A DNA stretch of 64,000 bases from a virus (taxonomy: Duplodnaviria > Caudoviricetes). Positions 33,923 through 55,767 of this stretch are shown here, one piece after another. A program made the translations under genes and the position numbers. Location: the IMG/VR virus record IMGVR_UViG_3300021387_000175, positions 1-64,000 of that record, one strand, 5' to 3'. The notes under the pieces are model-generated. The model was not told the DNA's origin and did no database searches. It worked only from the letters and a program-made list of their open reading frames with translations. The stretch's first letter is position 1. Each line of letters opens with the position of its first letter.

Positions 33923-36900
33923 TCACGCATACTTATACTTACTCATGGAATTCTTACCTAATACCGCACCCAATGTCATATCCTGTACTGCGTTCTGGAA
34001 GTTACGATCAGCTACAAGAGCGGACTTGAACTCATCATAATTCTTCACATTAGGAAGTGTGATACTTAACTGAATGGTAGTATTCGGTGAGAGAGTAGTA
34101 TTAGTGGTATTATTGATGACAGGCTGAGATCCGAAAGACTTAGCAAACATATCGGGAATATTCATTTTCGCTAATTTCCAGAGATTATCTGTCATTTCAG
34201 CATTGAATACCGCATCACCTCTACCAAGAGGAGTGAGGATAGCACCATCAGACTTACGGATAATAGTCTCAAGACCTTTTTCCTGAGTCCAGGCATTCAG
34301 ATCAGTAGGAACTGATTTAATACCTGTGACATAATGCCATCTTGCATGATAAGCATCGGAATCTTCTTTCGCTTTATGATAGGCGTCTTGTGCTTCATCA
34401 AATCTGGTTTTAGCATTTGCAAACTGTACTTCCAACCTGTTTAATTGACGCTCTAACTCTTGTATTTCTCTTTCTTTGTTTTCGTAGTTCTGTTTCGCTT
34501 TTAATGCTTCTTCAGATAATTGTCCTACCCTTGATTGACCTTTATATTTAGTAAATTTACTACGTTCCTCTTGCCGTTCTTTGTTTAACTGAGAAATATT
34601 ACGTTTAGTCTCAGCGATTTGTTCATTTAAAGTATTAAAATTGGAATATGCCTCATCTACTGTTTTCTTTGCCTGTTTAGTTTTACTATCCTTATCAATG
34701 GTATTCATCTTTTTAGACAAATTCTTCACCGTTGTAACGGTAGTATCATCTAAGGCGTCTTTTTCTTCTTGAGACATTCCTTTATACTCTTTAATAATGG
34801 ATCTAACAGCATCGTAATCCTTTGCCTTTAACTCTTTTTCTTTGCCAACATATCCAGAGACTTTTTCTCTAAAAGCTGCTTTTGCCTGTTCTTCAGGCTG
34901 ACGGGCTGCATCATCTATTACAGATTTTACGGCAGCTTCAATACGATTTTGTAAAGAACCGTTTTCTTTTAAAGAGCCAACAAGATTATCAGTGATATTT
35001 TTATCTACTTGTTTCAAAGTGTTAACAGTATCTGTTGTGTTACTACTTACACCAAGTGCATCAATTTTATCAGCAAGTAAATCTTGCATCTTTAAAAGAA
35101 CTCTATCACGATCTTTCAGATATCTATCAATCCATTCTTGGAAGTTAGCAGACAAATCATCCAACATCTTTTGGGCATCAGATAAGTACTTACTATATTC
35201 CGCATCCCGGAGATCCTGTCTGGCATCTTTAATATCTTTCTGCAGTTTCTGAATCTTAGATACAGATTCCTCAGAGGTATTATTCTGCCAAGCAGCTAAC
35301 TGTTTCTCCAGATTGGTAATATTATTAGCCTTTTCAGTAATTTGTTTCTGATAATCATAGGCTTCTTTCTCGGCATTCTTTAACTCTTTATACTTACTGA
35401 TTGTTTTATTCAGAGCAGTAAGCTGTGCTTCATAACCTTGACGAGCCAAATCAATGACTGCCTGCTTAGATGCTTCAGCAGCTTCCATAGATCCCCAATA
35501 AGCATCCTGTAATTCATTCATACGATCAATTACTTCTTTATCTGTAGGATCTAATTCATTATCATTGATCTTTTTGACCAAAAGATTATACTCATGTAAA
35601 TACTGCTGTGCTTCCGCAAGATTTGCTTTATAATCCGTATTCTTCAGATCCAAAGCAGCCATACCATATTTAGTAATATTACCTTGATTATCTGTATCAA
35701 AGAACTGTTCGTTGGAAATCAGATTATAATAATGATCAATCTCAGAGTTCAAACGCTTCGCACGTTCAATACCATCATCAAATTTCTGCCAGTTAAGCTT
35801 CTCCATAGCCATAGCTTGCTCATGAATATCCAGATTCAATTCTTCAATAGAATCTTCCAATTCAGCTATGATTTGTTTCGCTTCAAACCATTCATCAGAA
35901 CCTACAGTTAAGTCCTTAAGAAGTTTTTGCTGTTTTGCTAATTCTGCATTATATTCAGCAAGCATAGAAACATCTTGACGAATAATGTTCTTATAATCAT
36001 TACGTTGAGCATAATGACCATAAGCCTCTGCTGCATCAATACGTTGTTGCGCTTTTGTTTTACGGCGGTCATACTTATAACGATCTTTTTCACCTTGATT
36101 CTGAACATTCTTCATCTTTTGAAGTCTGCGTTGTTCATTCTCTTTTCTAATGGTTTCTTTATTAATTTCCGCTTGTGCTTTTGCTTCACGTCCCTGTTCA
36201 ATTGCTTCATTATAACTCAAGCAAGCCTCTAAGAAGGATGCCTGAATATAACCCGCATTTACCAGTTCTGCAATTTCACCAATAGTGTCACCATCAATAG
36301 CCACTTTTGCCTTAATATTCTTTTGGACTTTAGCTAAGGCTTTTTCTACACGAGATTTGACTTTCTTATTTTCATTTGCATCATATTTCTCTGTAGTTGC
36401 ATTACCTTTCTTTAACGTGGTTTTTATTTTTGTGGCGTTCTCTTTCCTAAGCTTTGCAAATTTTTCAACTTTCGCCCGATCATTCTTTTTCTGTGCTTCC
36501 GCAATTTTAATTTGCTCATCAATTAATTTGTTTTGACCATCAGCTGTTGTTTTATTTTCAATTTGTTTATCACGAAGATTGATTTTATTTTGTAATCGCT
36601 CATTTTTGTTATCATACATTTGAGCGTAATTCTGATAGATCTGTTGAATGTTTTCAGCAACCGCCAACATTTCTTCCATTTTTGCATCTTCGAAATTTTG
36701 CAACGTCTGATTATAAACAACCAATTGAGCTGCCAATTGAGGATTCTTTTTCTCAATATAGCTAATATCTTTTTCTTTGACGGGTTTATTGTGATCCATC
36801 GCAGTTTTTATACGTTTTAATACTGTTTGATATTCTTTATGAGACTTTTTAACAGTTCCATTTTTAACCCGTTCTTTTTCTAGTTTAGCTTCTTCCTTTG

Positions 36901-39900
36901 CTAATAAAGGATCAAGTTCAATCGATACTTCTTTTGACGCTTCTTCAAAATCTTGAAGATTCTCTTGAGTGGCTTTTCTATGAATTCTAATTTGCTTTCT
37001 TCTTTGACGATTTTCATAACGAAGTCTGCCGTTAGAGTATTGATAAGCATTATCAGTTCTTGCTTCAAAGTTGCTTTGAGCAATTTGAATGAAGTTATCA
37101 GATAAACTAACTCCCGCATCACGTTGTGCATCATGAACTTCTTTTAATGATTTGGCATATTCACGAGCCTGGGCCTGAAGTTCTTGAAGGGCATTCTTAG
37201 CTTCAATAGCCTTATCAATCCATTCTTGAGTACCTTCAATTACTTTACGGGTATCTTCATCATAGCTATTGATATCAATTTCACCATTAAGAATTTTATC
37301 CCATAATGCATCTTGATTTTCTTTGGTTTTTTTAGGTATGCCCTTTTGGTTCATTCCCTTTTTGAAAACTTCTTCAGCTTGGGCATAGTATTTATCATAT
37401 GCTGCATCTTCATTGCCTATTTGCTCATATATTTTTTCTAAAGCATCTTTGTACTTTTTCTCTGATAAACCATATGCCATACGGTCAAGGAATTCTTCAG
37501 CGAGAGAGGAGAGTTGATCAATCTTAGTTTGAACACGCTCTATGCGGATTTCAATCCAATCAAAAAGTTTATCGAGGTATTTATCAAAGGCATCGGTCTT
37601 ATCTTTCTTTTTGGTGGTGGTTGAACGTTTTCCATCGCCGTTACCGCCACTGCCTTTACGCCTTCCACCGTTGCCATTACCGTCACCATCTTTACTATCT
37701 TTTTTAGGCTTCCGTTTAGTATTTACAGGTTCAATATTAACATCACCATTAATAATAATAGTACCATTATTACCCAATGTCTTATTTAAAGAATCTAAAC
37801 CAGTAGAACCACCTGCATAAGCTACTCCACGAGAATTTATAGAACCATATTTAAACAGTTCTTCTGTTTGTTTATGGTTGAAAATAATATCGCCTTTTTT
37901 AACGTCTCTGAATTCAGCACCAGATTCGCCCAGTAAATCCCATTTAGTACCACGTACACGGAGTTCTGGGCCGAGTTCACCTACAAGAGAGGGTTCTGTT
38001 TTCTTAGCACCTATTGTACCTGATGCAAATGCGTTACCTTTAAATAATGAAAAATGAGCATTGCCTTTATATGAACCTGGTCCATCACCATTACCATTAC
38101 TATTTTCACGGTTAATTTTAATTTTAATATTAACAGTACGATTCATTTTATTTAATTCGCTGTTAATATTAGATAAAACTGTTTTGGTTGAATTTGCTTC
38201 ACTATGCAAAGATCCTAACACTTTGCTACCACTAACAGAAACACCATTAATACTATTAATAGTATTTTTAGCAGTACGTGCCTCAGAAGAAATATTCTTT
38301 TCTTTAGAAGCTACCCCTTCAAGATTTCCACTTATAGAACTCAGACTAACATCATTAATTTTTCCAACGTCATTAACACTTGTATTGGCTTCTTCAGAAA
38401 TATGTGTTATACCTTCATCAAAATTAGTAGTATCTAAGGTGGCTTTATATTCAATAACTGTTTCTGTAGTTGTAGTTTCTTGTTTTGGTGCTTCTCCACC
38501 ATCACCATTCGGACCTTTTTGCTCCCGCTTATGAAGCTTTTTAGTATTGGTATTAACTTGTTGCCCACTTTGGTTTAATGCGGTTGAGGTTGTCAATCGC
38601 CCCATTGTTTGTTCTATCGTTGTTAAATTAGTGAGAAGTTGGTCAGAACCTAATGTACCTATTGTATAAGAATTAATAGTTGTAATTGCTTCACCCAAAT
38701 TTTGTGCTGCAGAAGCAGATTCTTCACTTATAGTCGTATTAAGATCTTTAATTGCTTGTTGAGCCTTTTTCGTATTTAATCTATCAGCTTCTTCTTGTAT
38801 TTGCTCAAAGGTTGTTTTTCCGCTTTCCCCTAATGATTTTATTGCTGTAGAAGAAGTAGTAAGATCTATATTATTAAATAGCGCACTTAATTGACCATTT
38901 GAAAGCTGATTCATTTCTCGTAAATCGCCAACAATACCTTCAATTTGTTCTCGTGCCTTTTGTCCTGCAGTACGATCCCCAGTTGCTTCAGCAATTTTAT
39001 ATGCTTGCGCTGCAGCGCTAAGTTCATTAATTTTTGCAGCAAAATCTTTTTCTGCTCCCTCTTCCATACCAGAGATATCAATTACATATGTCTGGTTGGT
39101 CAAGGCAGCTAATTGTGCTTGTGTATTTTTAATTAATTCATTAAGCGCTTCTAAAGACGCCTGACCATTTTCGGTATCAATAAAATCGCCATTTTCGTCA
39201 TATAACGCTTTTTTTGCTTCTTCTAACTTATTTAATGCAACGGTAGCATCAACAGCATTATCATACTCAAGATCAAAATCAATTTGATCATCCTTCTCAA
39301 GACCTTTATTTACAGTTTCTTTTAATTCCTCTAACTCTTCAGGAGTCTTAAAACTATCAACTGCAATTTTATATAATTCTATTTGACGGTTAGCATCGGC
39401 TATTGCGTTAGTGTATTGATTCCATAATTCAGAATTTTCTTCTATCTCTCCACTATTAAGACGCTCATTCATTTCATCAATAGATTTACTAAGCTCATCT
39501 ATAGTAGTCGGCGCTCCATCTAAAGGATCAAGAAGATCATAAGTTACTCCTGCATCAAGCATTGATTTCACCAATTCACTCGATACAGAGAATCCTTCTT
39601 TTCCTAATACATTTTGCATATAATCTGATATCGCTGCAGCAATCATTCCTTCGTCTCCAACAGCAAAATTCAAATCACCATTTTCGTCAAAGAAACGCTC
39701 CATTCCTGCTTGATGTAATGCTTTTTCCGTCATGTCAAGAAAATCATTTACACCTTCGTTATCATTAGTCATGTATTTTTTAATAAAGTCCGCAATATTC
39801 TTTTTTTGCCCATAGACTTTATCACCATTCATAGACTGACCCGTGATCATTTCCATATATGCAAGGACTTCAGGATCTGCCCAACGTTCATTGTCTAATT

Positions 39901-42847
39901 TACCCTTGATAGTATCCCATCCTCCACGGATGGTATCATACATAGTCGCATCAGATCCCATCTCTTGAGACTGTAACCATTTCTGATAAAGGCTATCAGA
40001 TACTTCGATCTGAGCATTCATTTTTGCCCAAGATGTTAATCTGGTCTGAATTTGACTTTGCTCTTGTGATAAAACACTAAGACGAGTTTTTTCGGCATCT
40101 GTTAATGCTTCACTCTTACTTGTGAGGCTTTCAATTTCTTCTTTATTCTTTTTATATTTAGTGGTTAATTTATCATATTGATCATTTAACTTCTTACTAA
40201 TATCATGTTTTTGAGTATTAATCATTTCCTGCGCAGCTTTTGCATTTAATTGCATGCCATTCGCACCTATAGAAATTGCATCTGCAAAACCTTGATATGT
40301 TTCAGTTAAAGATTCAAAAGTTTTTTGTGATAAAAAGCCATTCTTGCTTTGTTCTGCCATAGCAGAAGAAAGTGCTGTTGAAGATTCGGCCAATGTATTG
40401 ATTGCAGTATTCGTACTATCAGCGAATTCATTCCATTTATCAGCAGCTCTACCTGTAGTTGTTGCTGATACTAATTCAAATTGCTGCATTAAATTAATTG
40501 CGTCTTGAATAAAAGTAGGAGATTGGAAATCTACTAATCCTGCTCGACCAAATACTCTGGCAACATTCATTGCGGATTGTTGGATAGAAGAGTACTGATC
40601 TTCAGGAATTGTCCAATCAATTTCACTTAATTCTTCAGCACTAATTTCTTTAAGATCCTTTAATGCATCTGTATAATTATCTTTTAATTTTTCTTTTACT
40701 TTATCATTGATAAATTTATCTGGATCAAAAGTCATAATTTCATCGGCCTTTAAAGAGCCAATAATTTTTGACCATGAAGTACCTGCAATATAATGTGCAA
40801 TTCGATCATTTTCTGAGCCAGATAACATGCTCATCAATGAAGACTTTCTATTTTTAAATACCTGTTGAGTACTATCAATACCAAAAGCATCAATTAATTC
40901 CTGACGTTTATCTTTTCCAATATGAAGCGCATTCATAGCTGCATCAAGGCGCTGTTTCATAATATCTGCATAATCATTAACATCTATCTTGGATAAATCA
41001 GGAGAGATAAAATCTTTAAGTACTTGAGAAGCCTCGCCTGTAGCATCTGATCGAATAGTATCAACAAATTTTAAATAATCTTCAGCACTAATTAATGCTT
41101 CTTTTGAAAATTGCTGTAAATATGCAACTCCATCTTGTGTTACTTGACTATCCAAGCTAAGATCGGGCGTAATTTCAGCATATGATTGTTTTAAATAATC
41201 AACAGCATTTTGATAACTCTCTTGTGCCGATGTTATTTCAGCGTAGTATTGCTTAATTTGATTTTCTAAATCTGTAATAACTTTTGACTTCGATTCATTC
41301 CGATATTTTGCTTCACCCGTAAAGCTATCGTAATCATAAGCTACCTTTACAGTATCGCCCTCTTGTTCTTGAATTTCTTTAATTTGTTGCTTTAATTTAT
41401 CTATTTTTCCTTGATTTTCTGCGGTTTTATCGTCAACCGCTTGCTTTAAAGCAGGTATTCCTGCATTAGAAGAAGGATTCACTAAAGAATCAATATTAAA
41501 AGAAGTTGCGTCAATTATAGCCCCTTCTTTTGCTTGGGCGAGTTCCCTATATTTATTAATCTGATCTTGAATAATTTCAGTATTTGCGAGAATAGCATTA
41601 CCTTCACTATCCCAACCAGTAACTAATTCAGGGAATTGTTCTGCAATTTGTTGACGAATAGCATAATATTCTTCAGATCCTGCTTCAGCTTCTCTATACT
41701 GATCCAAAAGATGCTGAAGAGAATTGGCGCTATTATTATATTCATCATATTCTTGTTTGAGTGCGTCTGCTTTCTCTTTACTGGAATCAATAAGTTTTTG
41801 ATTACGCTTGGCTACAGCATCAAGGCTCATTGAATAATTATCATAAGCAAATTTTGCTGCAGCAGCAACTGCAGCAATCGCAGCAATGACTAACGCAGCT
41901 TTACCAAGAGTGGTTAAATGTATTCCCGCTTTTTGAGCTGCTTCTCCAACTCCATTTATCGCATCGGAAGCATCTGTAGCAGTACCCACCACTTCACTGG
42001 ATACACCTAAATACATTTCCCAAGCTTCACTTGTTCCTTCGGCTGCTTCTGTTACAGTGTTTACAGCTTCACTTGCTCCTTCTGCTGCGGGTGTCACCTC
42101 ATAAAAACTATGAATAACATTTGAAAGCAATTCAGTTATACCAATTTTATCTTTTCCCGCTTTCAAGATTGTACCATATATAGCAAAACCTGCTCCTGCT
42201 ACTGATGGAATTAAACCTATAGCATTAACAACTTCCATTACCGCTGACGCAAGATCAAGAAAAAAGTTAATGGTTTCACGATTTGCAGTCCCTGCCCAGG
42301 CTTGTTGCCATTGGTTCTGAAGAACTGCAAGATGGCCTGAGATAGAATCCATGTATTTCTCATTTTCTTCCATAGCAGAACCAAAAGAAGCTTGAGAAGA
42401 TTCATAAACGTCTCGTAAAACATCTTTGTTTTGTAATATCGATGCGACAATGTTCGCTCTATTTTTTCCCGCTAACGTTTCGAGCAAACCATTCGCACGG
42501 TTCGTGCCATATTGTTTATCTGTTGCAATTATTTCTTCATAGACATCTGCAATATCCTGAAGAATTTCATACGTACTTCTGAAATTACCGTTTTCATCAA
42601 GTATATCTACACCTTTAAAGCCATTACTGGCTACAGCAGTGTAATCTTTAATTATTTGTTGAGATTTCGCTGATGTTTGGACTACAAAGTCATCTACGTC
42701 TTCTCCAAGATCAGCAAGTTCGGCCTTGGCTTCCTCTGTGCCAACAATTCTCAAAGCAACCGTTCTCATTGCATTGCCGACCTTTTTAGGGTCTTGCACC
42801 ACTGCATTCCCGGCAGTAATTAAAGCGATTGCTTCATCAATGTCATT
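33923..42847 (-). CDS. tape measure protein, exon 2 (spliced product 5364 aa)
   Basis: Begins NDIDEAIALITAGNAVVQDPKKVGNAMRTVALRI, the continuation of the conserved TMP domain; has TM segments, a 'LVGELGPE...GAEF...GDIIFNH.QT' block and long coiled coils. The track's GTG start at 42802 has no RBS. Confidence 0.9.
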   Translation of the reverse strand, partial: NDIDEAIALITAGNAVVQDPKKVGNAMRTVALRIVGTEEAKAELADLGEDVDDFVVQTSAKSQQIIKDYTAVASNGFKGVDILDENGNFRSTYEILQDIADVYEEIIATDKQYGTNRANGLLETLAGKNRANIVASILQNKDVLRDVYESSQASFGSAMEENEKYMDSISGHLAVLQNQWQQAWAGTANRETINFFLDLASAVMEVVNAIGLIPSVAGAGFAIYGTILKAGKDKIGITELLSNVIHSFYEVTPAAEGASEAVNTVTEAAEGTSEAWEMYLGVSSEVVGTATDASDAINGVGEAAQKAGIHLTTLGKAALVIAAIAAVAAAAKFAYDNYSMSLDAVAKRNQKLIDSSKEKADALKQEYDEYNNSANSLQHLLDQYREAEAGSEEYYAIRQQIAEQFPELVTGWDSEGNAILANTEIIQDQINKYRELAQAKEGAIIDATSFNIDSLVNPSSNAGIPALKQAVDDKTAENQGKIDKLKQQIKEIQEQEGDTVKVAYDYDSFTGEAKYRNESKSKVITDLENQIKQYYAEITSAQESYQNAVDYLKQSYAEITPDLSLDSQVTQDGVAYLQQFSKEALISAEDYLKFVDTIRSDATGEASQVLKDFISPDLSKIDVNDYADIMKQRLDAAMNALHIGKDKRQELIDAFGIDSTQQVFKNRKSSLMSMLSGSENDRIAHYIAGTSWSKIIGSLKADEIMTFDPDKFINDKVKEKLKDNYTDALKDLKEISAEELSEIDWTIPEDQYSSIQQSAMNVARVFGRAGLVDFQSPTFIQDAINLMQQFELVSATTTGRAADKWNEFADSTNTAINTLAESSTALSSAMAEQSKNGFLSQKTFESLTETYQGFADAISIGANGMQLNAKAAQEMINTQKHDISKKLNDQYDKLTTKYKKNKEEIESLTSKSEALTDAEKTRLSVLSQEQSQIQTRLTSWAKMNAQIEVSDSLYQKWLQSQEMGSDATMYDTIRGGWDTIKGKLDNERWADPEVLAYMEMITGQSMNGDKVYGQKKNIADFIKKYMTNDNEGVNDFLDMTEKALHQAGMERFFDENGDLNFAVGDEGMIAAAISDYMQNVLGKEGFSVSSELVKSMLDAGVTYDLLDPLDGAPTTIDELSKSIDEMNERLNSGEIEENSELWNQYTNAIADANRQIELYKIAVDSFKTPEELEELKETVNKGLEKDDQIDFDLEYDNAVDATVALNKLEEAKKALYDENGDFIDTENGQASLEALNELIKNTQAQLAALTNQTYVIDISGMEEGAEKDFAAKINELSAAAQAYKIAEATGDRTAGQKAREQIEGIVGDLREMNQLSNGQLSALFNNIDLTTSSTAIKSLGESGKTTFEQIQEEADRLNTKKAQQAIKDLNTTISEESASAAQNLGEAITTINSYTIGTLGSDQLLTNLTTIEQTMGRLTTSTALNQSGQQVNTNTKKLHKREQKGPNGDGGEAPKQETTTTETVIEYKATLDTTNFDEGITHISEEANTSVNDVGKINDVSLSSISGNLEGVASKEKNISSEARTAKNTINSINGVSVSGSKVLGSLHSEANSTKTVLSNINSELNKMNRTVNIKIKINRENSNGNGDGPGSYKGNAHFSLFKGNAFASGTIGAKKTEPSLVGELGPELRVRGTKWDLLGESGAEFRDVKKGDIIFNHKQTEELFKYGSINSRGVAYAGGSTGLDSLNKTLGNNGTIIINGDVNIEPVNTKRKPKKDSKDGDGNGNGGRRKGSGGNGDGKRSTTTKKKDKTDAFDKYLDKLFDWIEIRIERVQTKIDQLSSLAEEFLDRMAYGLSEKKYKDALEKIYEQIGNEDAAYDKYYAQAEEVFKKGMNQKGIPKKTKENQDALWDKILNGEIDINSYDEDTRKVIEGTQEWIDKAIEAKNALQELQAQAREYAKSLKEVHDAQRDAGVSLSDNFIQIAQSNFEARTDNAYQYSNGRLRYENRQRRKQIRIHRKATQENLQDFEEASKEVSIELDPLLAKEEAKLEKERVKNGTVKKSHKEYQTVLKRIKTAMDHNKPVKEKDISYIEKKNPQLAAQLVVYNQTLQNFEDAKMEEMLAVAENIQQIYQNYAQMYDNKNERLQNKINLRDKQIENKTTADGQNKLIDEQIKIAEAQKKNDRAKVEKFAKLRKENATKIKTTLKKGNATTEKYDANENKKVKSRVEKALAKVQKNIKAKVAIDGDTIGEIAELVNAGYIQASFLEACLSYNEAIEQGREAKAQAEINKETIRKENEQRRLQKMKNVQNQGEKDRYKYDRRKTKAQQRIDAAEAYGHYAQRNDYKNIIRQDVSMLAEYNAELAKQQKLLKDLTVGSDEWFEAKQIIAELEDSIEELNLDIHEQAMAMEKLNWQKFDDGIERAKRLNSEIDHYYNLISNEQFFDTDNQGNITKYGMAALDLKNTDYKANLAEAQQYLHEYNLLVKKINDNELDPTDKEVIDRMNELQDAYWGSMEAAEASKQAVIDLARQGYEAQLTALNKTISKYKELKNAEKEAYDYQKQITEKANNITNLEKQLAAWQNNTSEESVSKIQKLQKDIKDARQDLRDAEYSKYLSDAQKMLDDLSANFQEWIDRYLKDRDRVLLKMQDLLADKIDALGVSSNTTDTVNTLKQVDKNITDNLVGSLKENGSLQNRIEAAVKSVIDDAARQPEEQAKAAFREKVSGYVGKEKELKAKDYDAVRSIIKEYKGMSQEEKDALDDTTVTTVKNLSKKMNTIDKDSKTKQAKKTVDEAYSNFNTLNEQIAETKRNISQLNKERQEERSKFTKYKGQSRVGQLSEEALKAKQNYENKEREIQELERQLNRLEVQFANAKTRFDEAQDAYHKAKEDSDAYHARWHYVTGIKSVPTDLNAWTQEKGLETIIRKSDGAILTPLGRGDAVFNAEMTDNLWKLAKMNIPDMFAKSFGSQPVINNTTNTTLSPNTTIQLSITLPNVKNYDEFKSALVADRNFQNAVQDMTLGAVLGKNSMSKYKYA

Positions 42848-43288
42848 CGATTTATTATGAGTTTAAAACTCACTTTTTTATTATGCAATGCATAATAAAA
42901 ACTGCATCTTTCGATGCAGTCCAGACTATTTCTTCATCTTCAGCTTTACCTGTTAAGAGTACCCTTTTCGATTTAAGAGATTTTCACTCACATATTAAAT
43001 ATATGCCCTACGATTATTGATTTAAGTATTCAGGATTTCCACCTTTATTCTCTTGCTTAAATCCCGACATGGATCTAGTCGTTGAACGTTCACCCTCGAC
43101 TCAAGCACCGTATGTTCTACAGAATACGTTAGGGTGCTTCGCTGCATGAACAGCCAATCCTTACGTTTTAAAACCATCATAATATAGTTTCCTTATTATT
43201 GTGGTGTAAGGCTCTAAGGCATTACCTGCAATTAAGAATATTCATATAATACATTTCTGTATTATCAGGCAATTAGACATTTCTTTTT
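42848..43288 (-). ncRNA. group I self-splicing intron (441 nt, no homing endonuclease) in the TMP gene
   Basis: 5' exon ends GCAGGU and pairs with IGS GCCUG (43266..43270, G.U at the splice site). P AAUUGCAGGUAA (43222..43233), Q CAUGCAGCGAAG (43137..43148), R GUUCAACGACUAGA (43074..43087), S AAGAAAUAGUCU (42923..42934); terminal G at 42848. Removal gives in-frame SLKTAG|NDIDEAIA. Confidence 0.93.
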
Positions 43289-46200
43289 ACCTGCTGTTTT
43301 CAATGAACTTGCAGACAACTGCAATGCCGTTGCCAGTCCATCAGTACTAATTGAAAAATTGTTACCTACATTATTAAGCTTATCAATGATATCAAGTTTG
43401 TCTAAATCATCATAAGCAGCGCTCATAGCTACTAAACTTTCAGTAGCCTCATCTATACTTCCAAACTCAGATACATTAAATAAAATAGCAGCATCTTTTG
43501 CAGATTCTTTTGCGTCATCAAGCGTCTCTCCAAGCCTCATCCAGTCGGCAGTACTTTGCTGAATAGTTAATCCAGTAGTACCTACGCTGTTTGCCATATC
43601 ATAGCTTTCTTTTTGGAAATCACGAAGACGGGAGAGTGGTTCATCAGATACTTTTGCCATTTCTGTCAGAGCATCATCTAACTGATGAATAATATCAAAA
43701 CCCTCACGAGCATAACGAATAAAATCTTGAAAACTTACATAGGATAAGAGATAAGCACCAAAATCACGGAATTTCTTGGTTAACTTTGTGGCAAAAGTAT
43801 CACCAGTTTTTCCTGCTTCACGCATCGTTGTTTCAAGTCTATTGACCTGGTCAATAGCATTGTTTAACGATTGTTGATTAACATTCTGTAAACCATCACT
43901 AATTTCTTTTAATTGATTTCGAATTTCTCCACCCATCGCAGGATTTTTTTCGATTAAAGTAGCAATCCGTTTTTTCAAGTTACTTACATTCTTATCTAAT
44001 ACTTGAATATTATCTGTATTACCCAACGCCTTTTGTAAGTCATTGACTTTTACTATTAACTCACCAATTTCTTTGATATCTGACTCGTTTGTAATATCCA
44101 AACCATTTTTTAATTTTGCTTGTAAGCTATCAATAGTCTTATTATATTCTTCTAATTGCTTTTTATAAGCAGTAGTATCAACTGCTCGTTCTTGATCAGC
44201 AAATTCTTGAAAACTATCTCTTTTTTTTACTGCTTTATCTAATGTACTCATAGCAGATTTAGTCAAATTTTGAGAAGCATCATCTAATGCTTTTTTGACC
44301 TTGGCATCCGATTTAGGATCGGTATCAGTACGATCTGCTAATAATTTTGTTCGTTCCTGAAGTTTATTAACGATTTGAGAATATGCTGTATCAAAAACTT
44401 CCTTTGTTCCTGAATCAAAAGCATCTTTACCTAAAGAACCAATATTTTTAATCAGCCCTTCTTCGGTAGTATACGAAGCGTCTAATGCTTGCTTTTTTTG
44501 TTTTTGTGATTCTCGTTCACTCTTTTTTCTTTTTCTTTCATTTTCACGTTCTTCTTTTTCAATTTCTTTATTTAATTCTTTTTCTTCTTTGGCTTGTTGT
44601 TTTTGTTCATCCGCTTTTTTCTTGGCTACATCTTTTTTGTGTTGAGCAAAATGTGCTTCACGATCATCTAATTTTTTAGCTTCCTCTAACTGTTTTAAAT
44701 TTTCTTCCTTTTTCTGCCGTATATTCTCATAAGACTGCCTTTCTTCATCCGTTAAAAGAGCAATCTTTTCATTTAATTGATTATCAATATCTACTAAACT
44801 CTGAGTACGCTGAGTAGCGGTAACATTATCTTTTGCGGGATTAGTAACATCCGTTTCTAATAATTTATAACGTTTATCCAACAATCCTTTAACTGTGTCA
44901 AATGCTTTAGCAACATTTTCCTCCATACCAGTTTCTACTGTCTTTTTTACAGTCTTGCTTTCAGGATCATATTTATAATTAGTGCGCCATTTTTTCTTTA
45001 TACCGTTTTCATCAGTTTCTTCATAATCAACAGAATATCTGGACATATTACCAAATTCATCTTGGGAATAATGCTGATTTCTTCTGTTATAATCATTAAA
45101 ATATTTTTCGTCCTCAGAAATTGCTTTTAATAAAGCTTTATGAGTTTCTTCACTTAGTCTTTCTTCTTCATCTAAATCGGCTTTCTTATCTTTTTCAGTT
45201 TTTGATTTCTTGGCATTTTTTTCTTCGTTTGTTTTTTCTTCTTTTTCTTGATCGGTTTGTTTCTGTAATTCCAAACTTTTTGCTATTGATGAAAAGTCAG
45301 TTTGATTTAATGTTTCAAAGCCCTTATTCAACTGCTTTACTAATTCAGAAATGTACTCTAATTCTTCCCTTAACTGTTCAATAAATTCTACTTCGTTCCA
45401 AATTACTCCTTCTACTGTTGTGTTTTCATCTTTAAAAGCTTGTGTTTTATTTTGTATTGCTGTGTTAACATGCTCTATTGCTTGACCTAATTTTTGAAGT
45501 TCGTTAGTTTCTTTGGTAAAATCTAAAGATTGACCAGTCGTTTCTGTAGTATTTCTGATTTGTGCAATTGCTTCGTTTAATGATGGGATTACTGTCTTGA
45601 TTTTTTCAACTGTATCAGTCAATGGCTTGATTTGATTCTGTAAATCTATATTTTTACTAATTGAAGAAAAATCAGTAGTGTTTAATATATTAAAAGATTG
45701 ACCTAATGTAACAGCTAATTCAGATACCGCTTTTAATTCTTCCCTTAGTTGCTCGATGAATACTACTTCATTATAAATTACTTGTTCTACTGTAGAGTTT
45801 TCTGCTTGAAAGGCTTTTGTTTTTTCATCAACTGCAGTTGTTACTTTTATAACTGCATCTAAAAGATTACCAACTTGGGTTGCTTCCCCTGAAAAGTCTA
45901 TTGACTTACCAGTAGTATCTATTAGTCTTTTTAACTCAGTTGTCACTTCAGTTAAAGGAGCAATTATTTTTGTGATTTCTCCAAAACTAGCAGATAGTTC
46001 CTGTACGTTTAATTGACTTCCTGAAAAAATATCCCGAAGTATATTCATTTGATCATCAATTTCAGTTATGGATTGAGTATCTATTTGTTTTAATGCAGTT
46101 TCATAATTATCGAATATTCCACCAAATTGTGTTTCCCAGGAACTAATATCAATATTGCCGACTTTTGCCATCTCTTTCATTAAAGAAATAACTTCTTTAT

Positions 46201-49200
46201 AATATTGAATAGTTGAAGTAAGATTCTTTTGATCATAACCCTCATAACCTTTCCACGCTAACTGGACCTGTAAATCAGACCCTCCATTAGCACCAATTGA
46301 TTCTTTAAAAGAATCGGTTCCAGGTTTATAAAGCATTTTCATTAATGCATCAGATGCTTCTTGTATTTGTGGTATAAACGATCTCTTTACCTGTCCCTCT
46401 TCACGACTCTGCTTAATTGGGTTGTTACTTTTACCTAATGCTATATTAAAATTAAAATTACCAATCTGTTTAATTGATTCATTGATCGTATTTAATATGG
46501 TATTTACGTCTGTAAACGGCTTTGTAAAATCCATATTCTTAATACTATTAGCTAAATCCCTTATCTCACTTAAACTATTTTTAATTGTATTGAAAGATCC
46601 TAAAGGATCTGTTGAAGCCAGATAATCAATTCCGACTTTAATTTTTTCCAAAACATCAGACAGTTCTGTAAAAGAGGATGCGAAATCTAAATGGCTTAAG
46701 GTCTCAAGTGTCGTACTAATCGTACTAATACTTGTTTTAAATTCTTCAAAAGAAGAGAAGGCATCTAAGTTCTTTAATGCTTGTAATTCTGTTACAAGAT
46801 TTTGAACTAAAGTAATAAGTACTCCAAAAGCTTCCGCATAATCACCAGTCATTTGACTAGGATCGAAATCCATAGTAAGATCATTTAAGTGTTCTTGTAA
46901 ATGTTCGTATTGATTAGCGTATTGTTGATAATCGTTTAAATAATGTTCATACCATCCTAAATAATCTTTTGCCTGGTCTTCATTACCTTCATTTGAAGAT
47001 GCAGCAGCATGTTGATAATACCAATCCATATTATCTAATGCAGCGTCCCGTTCTTGTTTAACACTCTGCAATTCTTCTGATATTTTTTTTATATCGTTCC
47101 AATCATCTATGTCCCAATAATCCTGATAATCTTTATTATCCGCTTCTGCTCTTAACTGTCTTTTTTCATCAGCTAATTTTTGAAGTTCTTCTCTGGTTTT
47201 GGCAATTATTTTATATTCTTCTTCCGTTTGGGGAGAATTTATATTATCAAAATCTGATGTAAATGACTCTTTAGAACGAATATCATTTAATACTTCTTCT
47301 AAAGATAATACTTCAGTCTTAACACTTCCAATATCATCTGTTAAATTTTCAAATCCATTTTCTTGTAATATTTCAGTAGGAAATTCTTTTAATGACGCAA
47401 ACATTTTTTCAAACGCTTCAACAGTTTGAGGAAACTCTTCTTGAACAGATGAGTCTAAACTATCATAGATTTGTCTGATTTTAGAAATAAACTCATCCAT
47501 TTCAGGACTGATATCACCAATGCTTCCACCCAGTGCTTCAAAAGCATTCGCTTGTTTTAATAAATTGGATACTTTTCCTGATCTAAGAAAATCTTCTTCA
47601 CTAATATTCCCATTATCCCAATCAGATAACAACTGCTTTTTATTTAATAATCCATTCCATCGTTGCCGTAATCTTTCTTCCGAAGCTTCTGGAGATTTAA
47701 AGTAAGAACTTAAATCATCTGTATCTTCGTCCAAAATACTTTGCAATCTATCAGAAATTTGTCGTCTAGAACGCTCTCTAAATTCTGTAACTTGTTGTTC
47801 TAAGAGATTTAAAGCATCATCATAATATTGAACATTGGCTGCCGTCTCAATAAATCTATCATCCATAAAAGGACTGGAATCATTTTCTACATCTTCTTTG
47901 TATATAGCTTCTAATTTCTTTCTTAATTCTTCCTGACGCCATTCTTTTTCTTCGGCAACCTTTTGCATTTGATCCAAATACTTTGTAATTAATTCATCTG
48001 GATCTCCATCATATGGATCAGGGCCAAAGAAATTTTCAAATAATTTATCAGGATCAAGTTGGGAATATTGATGTTCATCCAGTATTTTTTGTACCTTTTG
48101 TGAAACTTTTTTTCGTTCTGTTTCTCTTTCACTTTCTTGCGTTAACATTCCAAATAAATCAAATTTTTCTACAGGCGGCGCTGATTTTATAGATTCACCA
48201 TATTGATTTTCTACGGCCTTTGTAGTTTCGTCTTCAGTTTCACGTAACGCATCTGCTAATTGTCGTTCTGCATCTAATTCTTCATGGATTTTATCAATAT
48301 TTTCTTCCCTGGCTTGTACTTCTTCACGAATATTTTCAGTTTGACTTTCATCCTCGGTAGAAGGGGGTTGAATATTATTTTCTTCTTTTTTTACTCGAAG
48401 TAATTCTTCACGAGCCTGCGTTTCTTCTTGGATATCTAAAGCATTACTATCCCGTTCTTTCTTTTTTGATTCTCTTTCTTTCTCTTTTAATTCATTATTT
48501 TCTTTATGGTTTAATATCCCTTGATTTTGTGAAACAGCTTCTTGAACCATTGCAGCGGAATATTGCGCAAATTCTTGTTTATCAAAAATATGGAATATTT
48601 CATCCATATTCTCAATTCCGTATTTAAGTAGCACGTCTTTTATTGAATTTTGTAATTCATTTTTTGCTTCGTCATACGAAGAGTATTCTTTCTTTTTATA
48701 TTTAATTTGATCTAAATCTGATATAACTGAACCACGAATATTTTTAGGTATTGCATTTAAATCAAGAAAAGATACATTATCTTTAGTAACTATAGCATGA
48801 ATAGCAGTATTTCTTTCTTCCTTCCAATCTTCATTCGCATATCTACGCCATGTATCAATATCAGAATGTCGTGCTTTAGAACCCGTTGTTTTTGTGGTTG
48901 AAGGAATTGCCATTCCTGAACTTCCATCATTATTATTTGGATGTGTATGTAAAGTGAAAAGCGCACCTTTTTCATGCACGTGTGAGGATTTTTCACCACC
49001 TTCTAGAATATCTGAAAAATCTCCATTTGCTTTTATATAAAATCCCTTTTCATTTCCTTCGGTATCAATATCTATGATTTTTTTTATAACTTGATCTAAG
49101 TTAGGAATTTTACTTAATAATCTTGCAGAACTTAAACCGATTTCATTCGCTCTACGTTGCTCGGCTGCAGATGGTACATTTTTTCCAAAATTTTCAATAT

Positions 49201-50458
49201 CATACATATCTGCAAATTGCTGTTCTTGCCAATTTTTACTTCTTAAATATCCATTTCGTCTATTGTTAATATAACTAAATTCTGCTAAGTCAGTAGGAGA
49301 GTGGATAGAAACACCATTATTATAAAATTCAGAATATTTCTCTCTATCTATATTATGAAAAATTATATTATCAACTTTATCTCCTCTCCCCAAGGCTTTT
49401 TGTCCTGCGATAGTTTTAAAGATCTCTGCACGATTTTCATCTAATTGATTACTTATTGAAGTATATTCTGCATCAGACAAAGATTCGTCATTTAATGATT
49501 CTTGTAATTCAAAATTTTTTGCTATTAGTGTTTTGATTTTTTTGACAAAATCTTCTTCTGACAATAAATAACTACGAAGATAATTTTCCCGTTGTTGCTT
49601 AACCTCTTCAGTTAATTCTGGTAATTGGCTTGATGTTATTTCCAAAGATTTTTCTTTTTTTGACTTAGGAAGTGGTTTAGTTTGATTTTTACTAGAAGTA
49701 ATAGAAGATGCTAATTTACTATAAGATCCTCCATCCAATGCTTCTTTTTGTTGTTCTACAAAAATTTTTATATCTTTATCTATTAAGTCGTTTTTTATTA
49801 AGTCTTCACTATACATATCTGCTTCTTCCAAATATGTATATAACATTTGTAATGCACGTTTTACCACATCTTGAGTATTATAAGTTAAACTTTCTACTAA
49901 TCCTTGATAAGGCTTTTTGTAATATTCTATCATTTTTTTGTTTAAACCTTGATCAGTAGCATTTAATCCTTCGGCAAAATTTGCTTCTTTAATATATTTT
50001 TTTAACGTGTCAGGATCTTTGAAATCACCATAATTAATTAATCCATTATTTTGCGATGCCAAAGCATGTAACAACTTAGGTAAAATTTCTTTTGCGTCTG
50101 CAATATCTTGTTTATCACTGTTACTTTTTAATACTTGAATGGCATCATTTATTTCATATCGAATATTTTCCGGGCTTCCTAAATCTAATAATTTTTGTAA
50201 TTTTACATCTGACTTTAATCCCGCTCCTAACCCAGTAAGTAATTTGTTTAAAGATTCTACTTGCTCAACAGTCATATCGGCTGACTTCGCTAAATCTTCA
50301 AAAAAGTTTTTTTGTTTCTTCGCATCTTTAACACGAATTATAACATCAATAACTTGTGTAATTGTTGCAGGCTGCCCTGTGCCCTTTATTCTACCTAATA
50401 ACTCATTAAGCACTGCTTCTGGTTTAATAGGAGAACCTGAACCTAATTTTTCTGCCAT
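43289..50458 (-). CDS. tape measure protein, exon 1 (long N-terminal extension with JAB/MPN-like motif, then start of the TMP domain)
   Basis: AGGAGGTGA RBS; C-terminal part LDDALTEMAKVSDE...ADWMRLG..NVSEF..IDEAT..L..DKLNNVGNNFSIS..GLA.AL..SAS.L is the TP901-type TMP domain. Confidence 0.9.
45270..45915 (-). repeat. tandem ~90-aa duplicated unit in TMP exon 1
   Basis: TTGKSIDF...KTKAFQAENSTVEQVIYNEVVFIEQLREEL...LNTTDFSSI versus TTGQSLDF...KTQAFKDENTTVEGVIWNEVEFIEQLREEL...LNQTDFSSI. Confidence 0.85.
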
Positions 50459-52450: not shown

Positions 52451-53017
52451 CTAGTTTTCCTTATATTTAGCACAAACTCCCTCGACTATTTCATCCTGGA
52501 TCCGGCCTTCCATTGCCTTACGAAGAATTGAACAGTTTCTATCATACCGTTTACAGGTTTTGCATTTATCTTCAAAATAATTAGCGGAAGCTTGATTATC
52601 AAACACTCCTACAAAATCTACAGGATAAATAGTCAATTCAATATGTGGATTTTTATTATCGTACATAACCTTTAAAATGCGATTACAAACCATATTATCA
52701 TCTAACCAAACCACACCAGAATCTGTAATAGCATCAGAAATGCACTTATCATAATTAGCGCAATCCATATCGGTCCTTGGAAAATAATAAACCGCATCAA
52801 CATAATAATGCTGATACGGATTTTCACTTTTTATCCAACCTTGTTTTTTCGCCTCTTGTTTTACATATTCTGTAAATCGTTTCTGGAAGTCTTTCGCTTC
52901 TTTTGTCTTATAGGACATTGCCATAGGTTTTCCATTTTTATACATTACACGATATGCAAGATAGTGATTCACTGAAATGAATTCATTTACGGTGAGTTTT
53001 AATACTTGCTTTTCCAT
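52451..53017 (-). CDS. rusA: RusA-family Holliday junction resolvase
   Basis: SVNHY, 'YFPR..MD..N..K...DA' and 'VW.DD..V' RusA catalytic pattern; C-terminal CxxC...C...C extension. Confidence 0.75.
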   Translation of the reverse strand: MEKQVLKLTVNEFISVNHYLAYRVMYKNGKPMAMSYKTKEAKDFQKRFTEYVKQEAKKQGWIKSENPYQHYYVDAVYYFPRTDMDCANYDKCISDAITDSGVVWLDDNMVCNRILKVMYDNKNPHIELTIYPVDFVGVFDNQASANYFEDKCKTCKRYDRNCSILRKAMEGRIQDEIVEGVCAKYKEN

Positions 53018-54856: not shown

Positions 54857-55469
54857 TCAACCCTCGTCATCATCATCAGCCCAAGTAATGTAGTACAGCA
54901 GCTTTTCAGAACCGCAGTAAGAAGACTGCAGAGAACCACTGAAGTCTACAGTAGCATCCGTAGTCAGAGACAGAGAAATCTCAGGGCTGATCTGGAAGGA
55001 CGGAAACGTGATATACATAGCTTTGAGCGTATTGACTGAACATGGATCTATAGCGAGCGCTTTTACAGTCAATTTAATAGTTCCAGGGAATTTGTCAGAC
55101 TCATTAATGATCTTTGCACCAGTATTTACGGTACGCTCGTACTTCACGATGTACTGCTCAATACCTGCAGTAGTAGGAGGAGTCAAAGTAGTAACTCCGT
55201 CAACAGTGGTAACATTATAAGCAGTCAGATCATAAATCTGACCCATACCACCAGAGGTGTTCATATCAGAAACCTGAATAGTACCTTCAATATAACCAGT
55301 GATATCCAGGGTCTCACCCTTCTTCACAACGGCAATACGAGGCATAACAATAGTATGAGAAGCGGTAGCCATTTCAGCATCTGTACCAGAAGCGGTAGCC
55401 AGAGCAGAGAAGTTGATCATTGCTTCTGTAGCGGTAACTTCGCCAGTTTTTGCCTGCCAAAAGCGTTTT
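54857..55469 (-). CDS. major tail (tube) protein, exon 2 (spliced product 265 aa)
   Basis: Frame is open upstream of the track's ATG: KRFWQAKTGEVTATEAMINFS; highly expressed-type codon usage; position after the head-tail joining genes. Confidence 0.8.
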
Positions 55470-55767
55470 CAATTTCTGTTACTTCTATGACCTATTATGA
55501 ATATAAAAATGCAAATAATAGGCGAGTAAGTATTTCTACTTACTTCTCACATTTCATTTTTTTAGATTATAGTGTGAGTTCAGACTGTATATTCATCCTT
55601 ATAAAAATAAGGAGAGCCACTTCAATATATATGTCACCATATATATCCTGCAGTCGTTACGGATTCTCTCATATAAAGAGTCTTTCCTCGGTCTTGTCCA
55701 TCTCTGGAGTTTAACCGATATAGTGGCTTTTTAATTATGTATTACTACATAACCTGGCAAAACTTAT
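55470..55767 (-). ncRNA. group I self-splicing intron (298 nt, no ORF) in the tail tube gene
   Basis: 5' exon ends CUGGU and pairs with IGS GCCAG (55754..55758); adjacent GUUUU pairs with 3' exon AAAAC (P10). P3 AGCCACU/AGUGGCU (55722..55728/55615..55621); P7 R GUAACGACUG (55651..55660) and S AAUAUACAGUCU (55582..55593); terminal G at 55470. Junction GU|A restores Val: DAQGTLV-KRFWQ. Confidence 0.92.

What the first reader, a model, noticed from the sequence alone, without database searches (positions are those of the whole stretch)
42848..43288. ORF-less group I intron splits the tape-measure gene inside its most conserved domain
Seen: the two TMP ORFs are in the same frame, and removing exactly 42848..43288 fuses ...SASSLKTAG to NDIDEAIALITAGNAVVQDP..., rebuilding the TMP motif. 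The junctions follow group I rules (exon U paired to IGS G, terminal G), P10 is possible (AAUGUC with exon GACAUU), and the P/Q/R/S core is intact with P7 GACUA/UAGUC. Known: phage group I introns are mostly described in DNA-metabolism genes and often carry homing endonucleases; introns in structural genes are less commonly reported (e.g. Staphylococcus phage Twort). Inference: tail assembly depends on ribozyme splicing, and the true product is a 5364-aa protein that automatic annotation would call two genes.
Basis: partly seen in the sequence, partly recalled or inferred. Interest (0 to 1): 0.85.

Follow-up and report, generated by a model that had tools for sequence, protein, structure and literature searches.

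The report
Group I intron splitting tape-measure gene
A 441-base self-splicing-type RNA intron with no gene of its own interrupts the giant tail tape-measure gene of a gut phage, which is real and neatly documented but of a kind already described in Bacillus prophages.

Summary
On the minus strand, 43288..42848 (441 nt) lies between two same-frame ORFs. Rfam RF00028 matches it end to end (48.8 bits, E 3.3e-11; 1.2 bits under the gathering score). Pfam PF10145 and PHROG 4211 (tape measure) match the end of ORF 1 and the start of ORF 2 at abutting profile positions. Five of seven homologous loci read ...KTAG|ND... straight through with no insertion. All 103 pairs of a hand-built P1-P9 group I fold are standard pairs in the window. 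Across 21 related introns, 90.9% of cells pair, against 35-44% when partners are slid. U43289 pairs with G43270 in P1, G42848 is the terminal G, and a 3+6 bp P10 is possible. No ORF longer than 63 aa lies in the intron, whereas relatives carry 312-476 aa ORFs. No RNA data were found, so splicing is inferred. The intron belongs to a family seen in 39 fetched loci, at several other sites of the same domain. Group I introns at three sites in tape-measure genes, and in a tail-tube gene, were described in 2008 (PMC2504315), so this is a new member of a known kind. A second group I intron (55767..55470) splits a virion structural gene in the same window.

The parts
43289..50458 (-). Exon 1 of the tape-measure gene (2390 codons, ATG 50458 to GGT 43291-43289)
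   Evidence: ORF list and translation. The last 104 aa match PF10145 positions 6-111. The last 366 aa match phrog_4211 positions 356-746.
42848..43288 (-). ORF-less group I intron, 441 nt, subgroup IA-like (extra helices between P7 and P3')
   Evidence: RF00028 48.8 bits, E 3.3e-11, model 1-253. All 103 modelled pairs are standard. Covariation in 21 relatives. Largest internal ORF is 63 aa.
33923..42847 (-). Exon 2 of the tape-measure gene (2974 codons plus stop)
   Evidence: Translation. Residues 3-109 match PF10145 positions 114-190. Residues 3-372 match phrog_4211 positions 749-1072.
43266..43293 (-). P1 hairpin. Exon CAGGU (43293-43289) plus intron AA pair with guide sequence UUGCCUG (43272-43266). 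U43289.G43270 is the splice-site wobble pair. The exon-1 frame stops at TGA 43267-43265, inside the guide sequence.
   Evidence: Sequence; CM alignment; pair check; MFE fold recovers it.
43271..43281 (-). Intron strand of a possible P10. AUU 43273-43271 pairs with exon-2 AAU 42847-42845; after a 2-nt bulge, AAUGUC 43281-43276 pairs with exon-2 GACAUU 42844-42839.
   Evidence: Read directly from the sequence; not tested by covariation.
43246..43265 (-). P2, 7 bp with loop AGAAAU
   Evidence: 6 of 7 pairs show changes on both sides among relatives.
43086..43240 (-). P3 5' strand (43240-43234), J3/4, and the P4-P5-P5a/b-P6-P6a/b/c domain
   Evidence: helices 5-12 are 98-100% paired.
43076..43080 (-). 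P7 5' strand GACUA (within R element GUUCAACGACUA)
   Evidence: Invariant in 21 of 21 aligned introns, so it is uninformative for covariation.
42977..43063 (-). Peripheral helices between P7 and P3': an 8-bp helix 43063-43056/43026-43019 with an inner hairpin, hairpin 43006-42990, and hairpin 42989-42977. This is the P7.1/P7.2-type insertion of subgroup IA.
   Evidence: helix 14: 7 of 8 pairs with changes on both sides, 100% paired.
42937..42966 (-). P3 3' strand (42966-42960) and P8 (42958-42937)
   Evidence: P3 partners covary in relatives (read from the alignment).
42924..42928 (-). P7 3' strand UAGUC (within S element AAGAAAUAGUC)
42848..42921 (-). P9 (42919-42902, GAAA loop), P9.1 (42899-42877), P9.2 (42873-42857), tail AAUAAAUCG ending in the terminal G42848
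   Evidence: MFE fold -27.4 kcal/mol, z -6.7, 0 of 200 shuffles; P9 covaries (helix 19).

Best explanation
The 441 bases at 43288..42848 (minus strand) are a group I intron of the phage type: subgroup IA-like, with extra helices between P7 and P3', and with no homing endonuclease gene. It sits inside the conserved PhageMin_Tail (PF10145) domain of a very long tape-measure gene of an uncultured gut phage.

Inferred mechanism, by the standard group I pathway:
- The late transcript folds into P1-P9.2.
- A free guanosine bound in P7 attacks the bond after U43289, which is held in P1 by the wobble pair with G43270.
- P10 (exon-2 AAU and GACAUU against 43273-43271 and 43281-43276) brings up exon 2.
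- The freed 3' OH of U43289 attacks after the terminal G42848.
- The ligated message reads ...LKTAG-NDIDEAIAL... and encodes one 5364-aa tape-measure protein.

Unspliced RNA would be translated only seven codons into the intron, stopping at TGA 43267-43265 inside the guide sequence.

Shown here: the fold, the splice-site rules, the exact junction, the lack of an ORF, and membership of a widespread intron family. Inferred: that it splices in vivo, and that the tail needs the spliced product.
For: (1) Covariance model. RF00028 matches 43298..42902 over the whole model (1-253) at 48.8 bits, E 3.3e-11, and E 1.2e-12 in the whole record.

(2) Junction.
- PF10145 matches the last residues of exon 1 at profile 6-111 (28.2 bits) and the first residues of exon 2 at 114-190 (25.7 bits).
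- phrog_4211, tail length tape measure protein, matches at 356-746 and 749-1072 (E 3e-26 and 4.5e-34).
- Of 7 homologous loci from viral contigs, 5 (L004, L006, L007, L009, L010) continue in one frame from the last exon-1 residue to the first exon-2 residue with no inserted base. The other 2 (L005, L008) carry an insertion 13 codons further on.
- A lower-depth contig in run X1 has 243 letters where the window has 684 between 42755 and 43440. That is 684 minus 441, the size expected without the intron. Those letters were not aligned.

(3) Fold.
- All 103 pairs of a P1-P9 model with the P3/P7 pseudoknot are standard in the window.
- On 21 distinct related introns, 90.9% of cells pair against 34.6-43.6% with slid partners. 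48 pairs have changes on both sides against 6-13. None of 500 shuffles reaches any measure.
- MFE z is -5.6 for the whole intron and -6.7 for P9-P9.2.

(4) Splice-site rules: U.G in P1, terminal G, and P10.

(5) No ORF above 63 aa overlaps the intron. Relatives at other sites hold ORFs of 383, 312 and 476 aa.

(6) The same exon-intron junctions occur in other runs. Contigs bridge 43289/43288 in X11 (43215-43701, 50 differences), X5 (43089-43536, 31) and X8 (43206-43321, 2). One contig bridges 42848/42847 in X8 (42752-42902, 4).
Against: - The RF00028 score is 1.2 bits below Rfam's gathering score, so a default Rfam scan of the window reports nothing.
- No RNA run was listed as holding the stretch, and the laid contigs show no spliced RNA form. 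Splicing is therefore not shown.
- P3 of the window's copy has two G.U pairs. Its register was set by hand, and 16 of 21 sequences do not pair at one of its positions (pair 74/399).
- P7 and P4 never vary among the relatives, so covariation says nothing for them.
- None of the 39 fetched loci with a related intron core has it at this site.
- With no endonuclease gene, how the intron reached or keeps this site is unexplained.
Confidence: 0.9

Rival explanations
1. [quoted passage not shown] The insertion then truncates the tape-measure protein, or leaves two separately translated polypeptides (2397 aa ending KKKCLIA, and 2959 aa from GTG 42802).
For: No RNA evidence of splicing. Score just under Rfam's gathering cut-off. 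No endonuclease gene, which fits the late stage of the invasion-decay-loss cycle mentioned in PMC2504315 (passage seen). The record is estimated 88% complete, from a metagenome.
Against: All 103 modelled pairs are intact in this copy. The R and S elements and P7 equal the family consensus. The splice-site U.G, terminal G and P10 are all kept. Both exons keep long open frames of 2390 and 2974 codons in phase. Close copies with the same junctions occur in runs of other studies. Splitting PF10145 at mid-domain would be expected to destroy it.
Confidence: 0.07
2. It is not an intron. Two independent genes are separated by a structured intergenic RNA that merely resembles a group I core.
For: ORF calling gives two ORFs. 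Each Pfam half-match is below the family cut-off on its own (28.2 and 25.7 against 33.2 bits).
Against: Five of 7 homologues are continuous at exactly this residue pair. One PHROG profile is matched at 746|749 across the gap. The full-length CM match has E 3e-11. The downstream ORF's first start codon lies 15 codons inside the conserved domain.
Confidence: 0.02
3. Splicing is partial by design. The stop in the guide sequence yields a 2397-aa N-terminal product from unspliced RNA alongside the full-length protein, so splicing efficiency sets a ratio of two products.
For: An in-frame TGA lies 7 codons into the intron. The N-terminal ~2000 aa lie upstream of the part that matches tape-measure profiles (the match starts at profile position 356 only in the last 366 aa of exon 1). 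In homologues the part before the junction is far shorter (ORFs of 1257 aa in L005 and 1443 aa in L009).
Against: Early in-frame stops are common in phage introns (recalled, not from a call) and need no special role. Nothing here measures splicing efficiency. The truncated product would end in the middle of PF10145.
Confidence: 0.08

Closest known systems
Group I introns TMP-IVS1, IVS2, IVS3a/b in tape-measure genes of Bacillus cereus-group prophages (Tourasse and Kolsto 2008, PMC2504315; section 8 part 1 read)
   Same: Group I introns of subclass IA1/IA2 inside the tape-measure gene of Firmicute phages. There are several insertion sites in one gene. Homologous introns at different sites have conserved cores and re-tuned P1/P10. 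Some lack a complete homing endonuclease gene. A further intron sits in a tail-tube gene of related prophages, and here a second intron sits in a virion structural gene.
   Different: The host phage lineage differs (uncultured gut phage; best cultured-phage protein match is SPbeta YomI at 26%). The tape measure is much longer (5364 aa against '>1200'). No sequence comparison with the Bacillus introns was run, so homology to them is untested. The family seen here occupies more sites.
Related intron in MT835469.1 (unverified phage scaffold from human faeces), the only phage-collection record matching the intron
   Same: 73.7% identical over 310 nt of the core. RF00028 45.7 bits over the full model. 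It also lies in a tape-measure-like domain (translation; flanks) and has the same guide sequence GCCUG.
   Different: It sits about 110-120 codons further down the domain. It is followed by a 476-aa ORF with weak DUF723/DUF2726 hits. The base equivalent to the splice-site U is a C.
Introns in capsid and minor tail genes of Cluster J mycobacteriophages (Pope et al. 2013, PMC3706429; passages seen)
   Same: Group I introns in virion structural genes of siphoviruses. The paper reports them efficiently spliced in late expression, and the tail-gene introns are small.
   Different: They are from a high-GC actinobacteriophage and lie in a minor tail gene, not the tape measure. Splicing was shown experimentally there, not here.
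Classical phage group I introns (T4 td/nrdB/nrdD, SPO1 DNA polymerase, Staphylococcus phage Twort and K, Lactobacillus LL-H terminase): the list in PMC3706429 and PMC4299906 (passages), the rest recalled
   Same: The same ribozyme class and the same habit of sitting in the most conserved stretch of the host gene.
   Different: These are mostly in nucleotide-metabolism, replication, lysis or packaging genes, and many carry endonuclease genes.

Membership tests
Group I intron (Rfam RF00028) | Conserved core: P3-P8 and P4-P6 domains with the P3/P7 pseudoknot and the R/S elements | tested here: met
   The CM alignment covers model 1-253. All 103 hand-modelled pairs are standard. 90.9% of cells pair across 21 relatives against 35-44% when slid, and 48 pairs have changes on both sides.
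Group I intron (Rfam RF00028) | Score at or above Rfam's curated gathering score (a database cut-off, not a biological feature) | tested here: inconclusive
   48.8 bits against 50, with E 3.3e-11. Large peripheral insertions in P5 and after P7 cost score.
Group I intron (Rfam RF00028) | 5' splice site after a U that forms a U.G wobble with the internal guide sequence in P1 | tested here: met
   U43289.G43270, flanked by 4 exon pairs and 2 intron pairs.
Group I intron (Rfam RF00028) | Last intron nucleotide is G; P10 can align the 3' exon | tested here: met
   G42848. P10 has 3 bp next to the splice site plus 6 bp after a 2-nt bulge (read). P10 was not tested by covariation.
Group I intron (Rfam RF00028) | Removal restores an uninterrupted host gene | tested here: met
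   Pfam 111|114, PHROG 746|749, and 5 of 7 homologues continuous at the junction.
Group I intron (Rfam RF00028) | Guanosine-dependent self-splicing | not testable with these tools
   No RNA holder was listed and no spliced form was seen.
Subgroup IA | Extra helices (P7.1/P7.2) between the P7 5' strand and the P3 3' strand | tested here: met
   Helices 14-17 lie there, 100% paired in three of the four, with 7 of 8 pairs of the main one changed on both sides. IA1 against IA2 was not resolved: no subgroup models were on hand.
Mobile intron with homing endonuclease | An endonuclease ORF within the intron | tested here: not met
   The largest ORF overlapping 42848-43288 is 63 aa. Relatives L005, L009 and L001 hold ORFs of 383, 312 and 476 aa with only weak or zinc-finger Pfam hits.
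Phage tail tape-measure protein | PF10145/TMP profile match and a place in the tail module | tested here: met
   phrog_4211 E 3e-26 and 4.5e-34. The PF10145 halves score 28.2 + 25.7 bits, each under the 33.2 cut-off alone. The next gene downstream matches tail-fibre PHROGs. NCBIfam gave no hit.

The most novel reading that the evidence does not exclude
The window's intron belongs to a large family of gut-phage IA introns (core 73-86% identical in 39 fetched loci). The family has colonised at least four or five different codon positions inside the same tape-measure domain by changing little more than P1/P10.

The window's copy is the only one of those seen at KTAG|N. That site shares ACAGCAGGT|AA with the site 13 codons downstream (..TTAG|N). 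The downstream site is occupied in L005, L008 and L019 by introns with the same guide sequence GCCUG.

This pattern would fit ectopic transposition of an endonuclease-less intron between look-alike sites, guided by the RNA's own P1/P10 pairing (reverse splicing) rather than by endonuclease homing.
Probability: 0.2. Interest if true: 0.55.

Novelty: new member of a known kind. Interest (0 to 1): 0.35.

Why it matters
For annotation, gene callers will report two giant proteins of unknown function where there is one 5364-aa tape-measure protein. The same applies to the second intron-split structural gene in this window. Scans at Rfam's default threshold miss both introns.

For biology, this adds uncultured gut phages to the Bacillus prophages in which the conserved tape-measure domain is a repeated landing place for group I introns. 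It also supplies a ready-made set of about 40 related introns at different sites for studying how P1/P10 are re-tuned. It does not change what is known about how such introns work.

Tried and rejected
- Rfam at gathering threshold on the whole window: 0 hits. The intron appears only with the E-value threshold.
- NCBIfam on both ORFs: no family.
- RNA evidence: no RNA holder listed. Laying contigs of four runs showed DNA forms only and no spliced RNA. Parts without cover in X5, X8 and X11 mean nothing.
- RNAalifold's own consensus found most hairpins, but it paired a 5' segment with the S element instead of giving the P3/P7 pseudoknot. I replaced it with a hand-built structure. That structure was derived from the window's sequence, so it is favoured on 'cells paired' against the slid controls.
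- Two candidate P3 partners (AAUCGU after the long helix, and AAUCG inside the next hairpin) were rejected. They do not covary, and P8 must abut J8/7.
- tblastn of the second gene's exon 2 against cultured phages: no match.
- Pfam on residues 380-640 of exon 1 (a His-x-His-Pro stretch): nothing.
- I did not run a sequence comparison with the Bacillus TMP introns, a subgroup (IA1/IA2) classification, or an intron-versus-host-gene phylogeny.
- Supplements of the papers were not opened. Tables 2-3 of PMC2504315 and part 2 of its section 8 were not read; they may list intron features that bear on the comparison.

Full report
WHAT IS THERE

The relevant genes are on the minus strand. ORF listing gives 43265..50458 (2397 aa, ATG) and 33923..42802 (2959 aa, GTG) in the same frame. 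On the minus strand, exon 1 ends ...AAA ACA GCA GGT with T at 43289. The proposed intron runs from A43288 to G42848, which is 441 nt or 3 x 147. Exon 2 begins AAT GAC ATT GAT at 42847. Translations give ...SASSLKTAG, with G as residue 2390 followed by seven intron-encoded codons KKKCLIA and TGA 43267-43265, and NDIDEAIALITAGNAVVQDPK... of 2974 aa. The window is part of a 136,099-base virus record that is estimated 88% complete.

IS IT A GROUP I INTRON?

At Rfam's gathering threshold the whole window gives no hit. With the E-value threshold, RF00028 matches 43298..42902 on the minus strand over the complete model (1-253) at 48.8 bits, against a gathering score of 50, with E 3.3e-11. In a search of the whole record E is 1.2e-12. 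The alignment places P1 on the exon-intron boundary. It shows the R element GUUCAACGACUA and the S element AAGAAAUAGUC, with large insertions in P5 and after P7 that cost score.

I built a full secondary structure by hand from this alignment and from the sequence:
- P1, P2 and P3;
- P4, P5 with P5a/b, and P6 with P6a-c;
- P7, then four helices between P7 and the P3 3' strand;
- P8 and P9, with P3 and P7 forming the pseudoknot.

All 103 pairs are Watson-Crick or G.U in the window's copy. Thermodynamic folding independently recovers P1, P2, P5a/b, P6a, the long post-P7 helix and P9. It adds two hairpins, P9.1 and P9.2, before the 3' end. The z-score is -5.6 for the whole intron, with 0 of 100 shuffles as stable, and -6.7 for the 3' part, with 0 of 200.

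COVARIATION

A 16-base motif of the core found 58 stretches in viral contigs. By blastn, 39 of the 66 loci then held (37 of those 58, plus L001 and L009) carry a core 73-86% identical to the window's intron at E <= 1e-20.

I aligned the window with 20 of these. Identical copies were collapsed, and five loci whose match stopped short at the 3' side were left out (L009, L015, L021, L051, L060). On these 21 distinct sequences the hand-built structure has 90.9% of cells paired, against 34.6-43.6% when the 3' partners are slid by 1-3 columns. It has 48 pairs with a change on both sides, against 6-13. None of 500 shuffles reaches any of the five measures.

Limits of this test:
- The structure was derived from the window's own sequence, which favours it on 'cells paired'.
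- The sequences are related, so the shuffles overstate significance.
- P4, P7 and part of P6 never vary and so give no evidence either way.
- P1 is only 52.5% paired in the alignment. This is expected because the relatives sit at other sites with other guide sequences.
- One P3 position fails in 16 of 21 sequences.

The compensatory changes in P2, P5a, P5b, P6c, the post-P7 helix, P8 and P9 are the real support.

SPLICE SITES

U43289 pairs with G43270 in P1. Exon CAGGU plus intron AA pair with UUGCCUG 43272-43266. The last intron base is G42848.

It can be joined, over a two-base bulge, to three further pairs directly at the splice site (exon-2 AAU 42847-42845 with AUU 43273-43271). I read this from the sequence and did not test it by covariation.

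IS THE JUNCTION RIGHT?

Three independent lines say yes.

1. Pfam PF10145 (PhageMin_Tail) matches the last 104 residues of exon 1 at profile positions 6-111, and residues 3-109 of exon 2 at positions 114-190. The scores are 28.2 and 25.7 bits, each below the 33.2 cut-off alone.
2. phrog_4211 (tail length tape measure protein, 2625 positions) matches exon 1 up to position 746 and exon 2 from position 749, with E 3e-26 and 4.5e-34.
3. Seven loci in viral contigs encode relatives 43-62% identical to the end of exon 1. In five of them (L004, L006, L007, L009, L010) the exon-2 match starts at the very next codon in the same frame. They read for example ...LQTAGNDLDQAIAL..., with no inserted base. 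The other two (L005, L008) are also continuous at this point but are interrupted 13 codons later.

A minor contig of run X1, which may be the source sample, has 243 letters where the window has 684 between 42755 and 43440. That is the size expected for an intron-less relative, though those letters were not aligned.

Contigs of three other runs from other studies bridge the window's exon 1-intron junction, and one bridges the intron-exon 2 junction, with 2-50 differences. The intron-bearing allele is therefore not private to one assembly.

NO ENDONUCLEASE GENE

The largest ORF overlapping the intron is 63 aa, and on the coding strand 52 aa, lying over the ribozyme core. Related or neighbouring insertions do carry ORFs:
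- L005: 383 aa, with a DUF4379 treble-clef zinc finger at E 8e-10 and DUF723.
- L009: 312 aa, with no Pfam hit reaching its cut-off.
- L001: 476 aa, with weak DUF723 and DUF2726 hits.

That they are homing endonucleases is my inference from their place and their C-terminal sequence pattern, not a profile result.

THE FAMILY AND ITS SITES

Of the 39 loci with a related core, 18 have detectable similarity to the window's tape-measure domain next to the intron (tblastn E <= 1e-4). The other 21 have no hit, being too divergent or having short flanks. The junctions differ:
- after exon-2 residue 13 (L019, as in L005 and L008);
- around residues 106-121 (L001, L015, L021);
- at residue 127/128, ..LAG|K (L009, L068);
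- near residue 176 (L011).

None of the 39 is at the window's site. The cores are conserved while P1 and the 3' tail differ.

The window's site (ACA GCA GGT | AAT) and the site 13 codons downstream in L019, L005 and L008 (..ACA/ACT GCA GGT | AA.) share the last nine or so exon bases. They also share the guide sequence GCCUG. Yet by overall identity the window's intron is closer to introns of the ..LAG|K site (84-86%) than to L019 (74%).

WHAT IS KNOWN

Tourasse and Kolsto (2008, PMC2504315; I read section 8 part 1 and one passage) describe the following in Bacillus cereus-group prophages:
- group I introns at three positions (IVS1-3) of the tape-measure gene, and others in a tail-tube gene and in terminase genes;
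- introns of class IA1 or IA2, several without a complete endonuclease gene;
- IVS1 and IVS2 as homologous introns (80% identical, cores 90-92%) adapted to different sites through P1;
- insertion into the most conserved part of the host gene.

Every general feature of the present case is therefore in print. Pope et al. (2013, PMC3706429; passages) showed spliced introns in capsid and minor tail genes of mycobacteriophages.

My search for 'group I intron' with 'tape measure' returned 38 papers. I opened three of them. A second search added nothing on tape-measure introns, judging from the titles and abstracts listed.

In the cultured-phage collection, the intron matched only an unverified faecal scaffold, MT835469.1, at 73.7% over 310 nt. 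The best protein match of the exon-1 end was SPbeta YomI at 25.7%.

VERDICT

It is a well-preserved, ORF-less, IA-type group I intron in the conserved domain of a tape-measure gene. Its splicing is inferred but not shown. It is a new member of a known kind.

My confidence that it is a group I intron at exactly these bounds is about 0.97. My confidence that it still splices is about 0.9 given that. Interest is moderate to low (0.35). The value lies in correct annotation and in the family of re-targeted introns, not in a new principle.

SIDE FINDINGS

A second group I intron lies at 55767..55470 on the minus strand (298 nt; RF00028 31.5 bits, E 3.9e-6 locally). It splits a gene whose exon 2 matches phrog_2729, virion structural protein, from profile position 56.
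- Exon 1 ends CUGGU with U55768 paired to G55758.
- The intron ends at G55470.
- Exon-2 AAAAC can pair with GUUUU next to the guide sequence (read).
- Four of five homologous loci read ...DAQGTLVKRFWQAKTGEV... without interruption. The fifth is an identical copy that carries the intron.

The spliced tape measure of 5364 aa would exceed the 'giant 5,002-residue' tape measure of Thermus phage P23-45, whose tail is 800 nm (abstract in the listing, bioRxiv 10.1101/2022.12.01.518664).

Noticed in passing
window 55470-55767 (minus strand); exons 55768-55952 and 54857-55469: A second ORF-less group I intron (298 nt; RF00028 31.5 bits, E 1.8e-7 in the record) splits a virion structural gene (phrog_2729). 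It has U55768.G55758 in P1, terminal G55470, and a 5-bp P10 (exon AAAAC with GUUUU). Four of 5 homologous loci read ...GTLV|KRFWQ... continuously; the fifth is an identical intron-bearing copy.
   Followed up: yes
window 33923-50458 (minus strand): The spliced tape-measure protein would be 5364 aa. That is longer than the 5,002-aa protein called giant in Thermus phage P23-45 (listing abstract). The first ~2000 aa lie upstream of the part matching tape-measure profiles and gave no Pfam family. In P23-45 the N-terminal part is an RNA polymerase, so an enzymatic cargo is worth testing by structure prediction.
   Followed up: partly
L001, L011, L027, L051, L068 (C-G) and L017 (U-A), 5' ends of the related introns as printed: In several relatives, the exon base at the position equivalent to the window's splice-site U is a C paired with the guide-sequence G (GGC|...GCC), or a U paired with A. 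This replaces the near-universal U.G wobble. Either their 5' splice sites lie elsewhere or the family tolerates a Watson-Crick pair there. The position is often the third base of a Gly codon.
   Followed up: partly
L008 3934-4317, 4561-6109 and 6321-6678; L009 4285-5928; L005 3856-5369: Homologous tape-measure genes carry up to three insertions within about 250 codons of the same domain. In L008 two are RF00028 hits (34.6 and 69.8 bits). The long ones hold ORFs of 312-383 aa. The domain is an intron hot spot.
   Followed up: partly
L010 (whole locus, frame of the tape-measure match): There are 55 in-frame TAG codons and no TAA or TGA over 6558 bases of the tape-measure frame. One TAG aligns with Q or A of homologues at the junction. 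This relative apparently reads TAG as an amino acid.
   Followed up: partly
window 52454-53017 (minus strand): A RusA-like Holliday junction resolvase (phrog_34, E 7e-22) sits between the virion structural genes and the tape-measure gene. This is an unusual place for a recombination gene.
   Followed up: no
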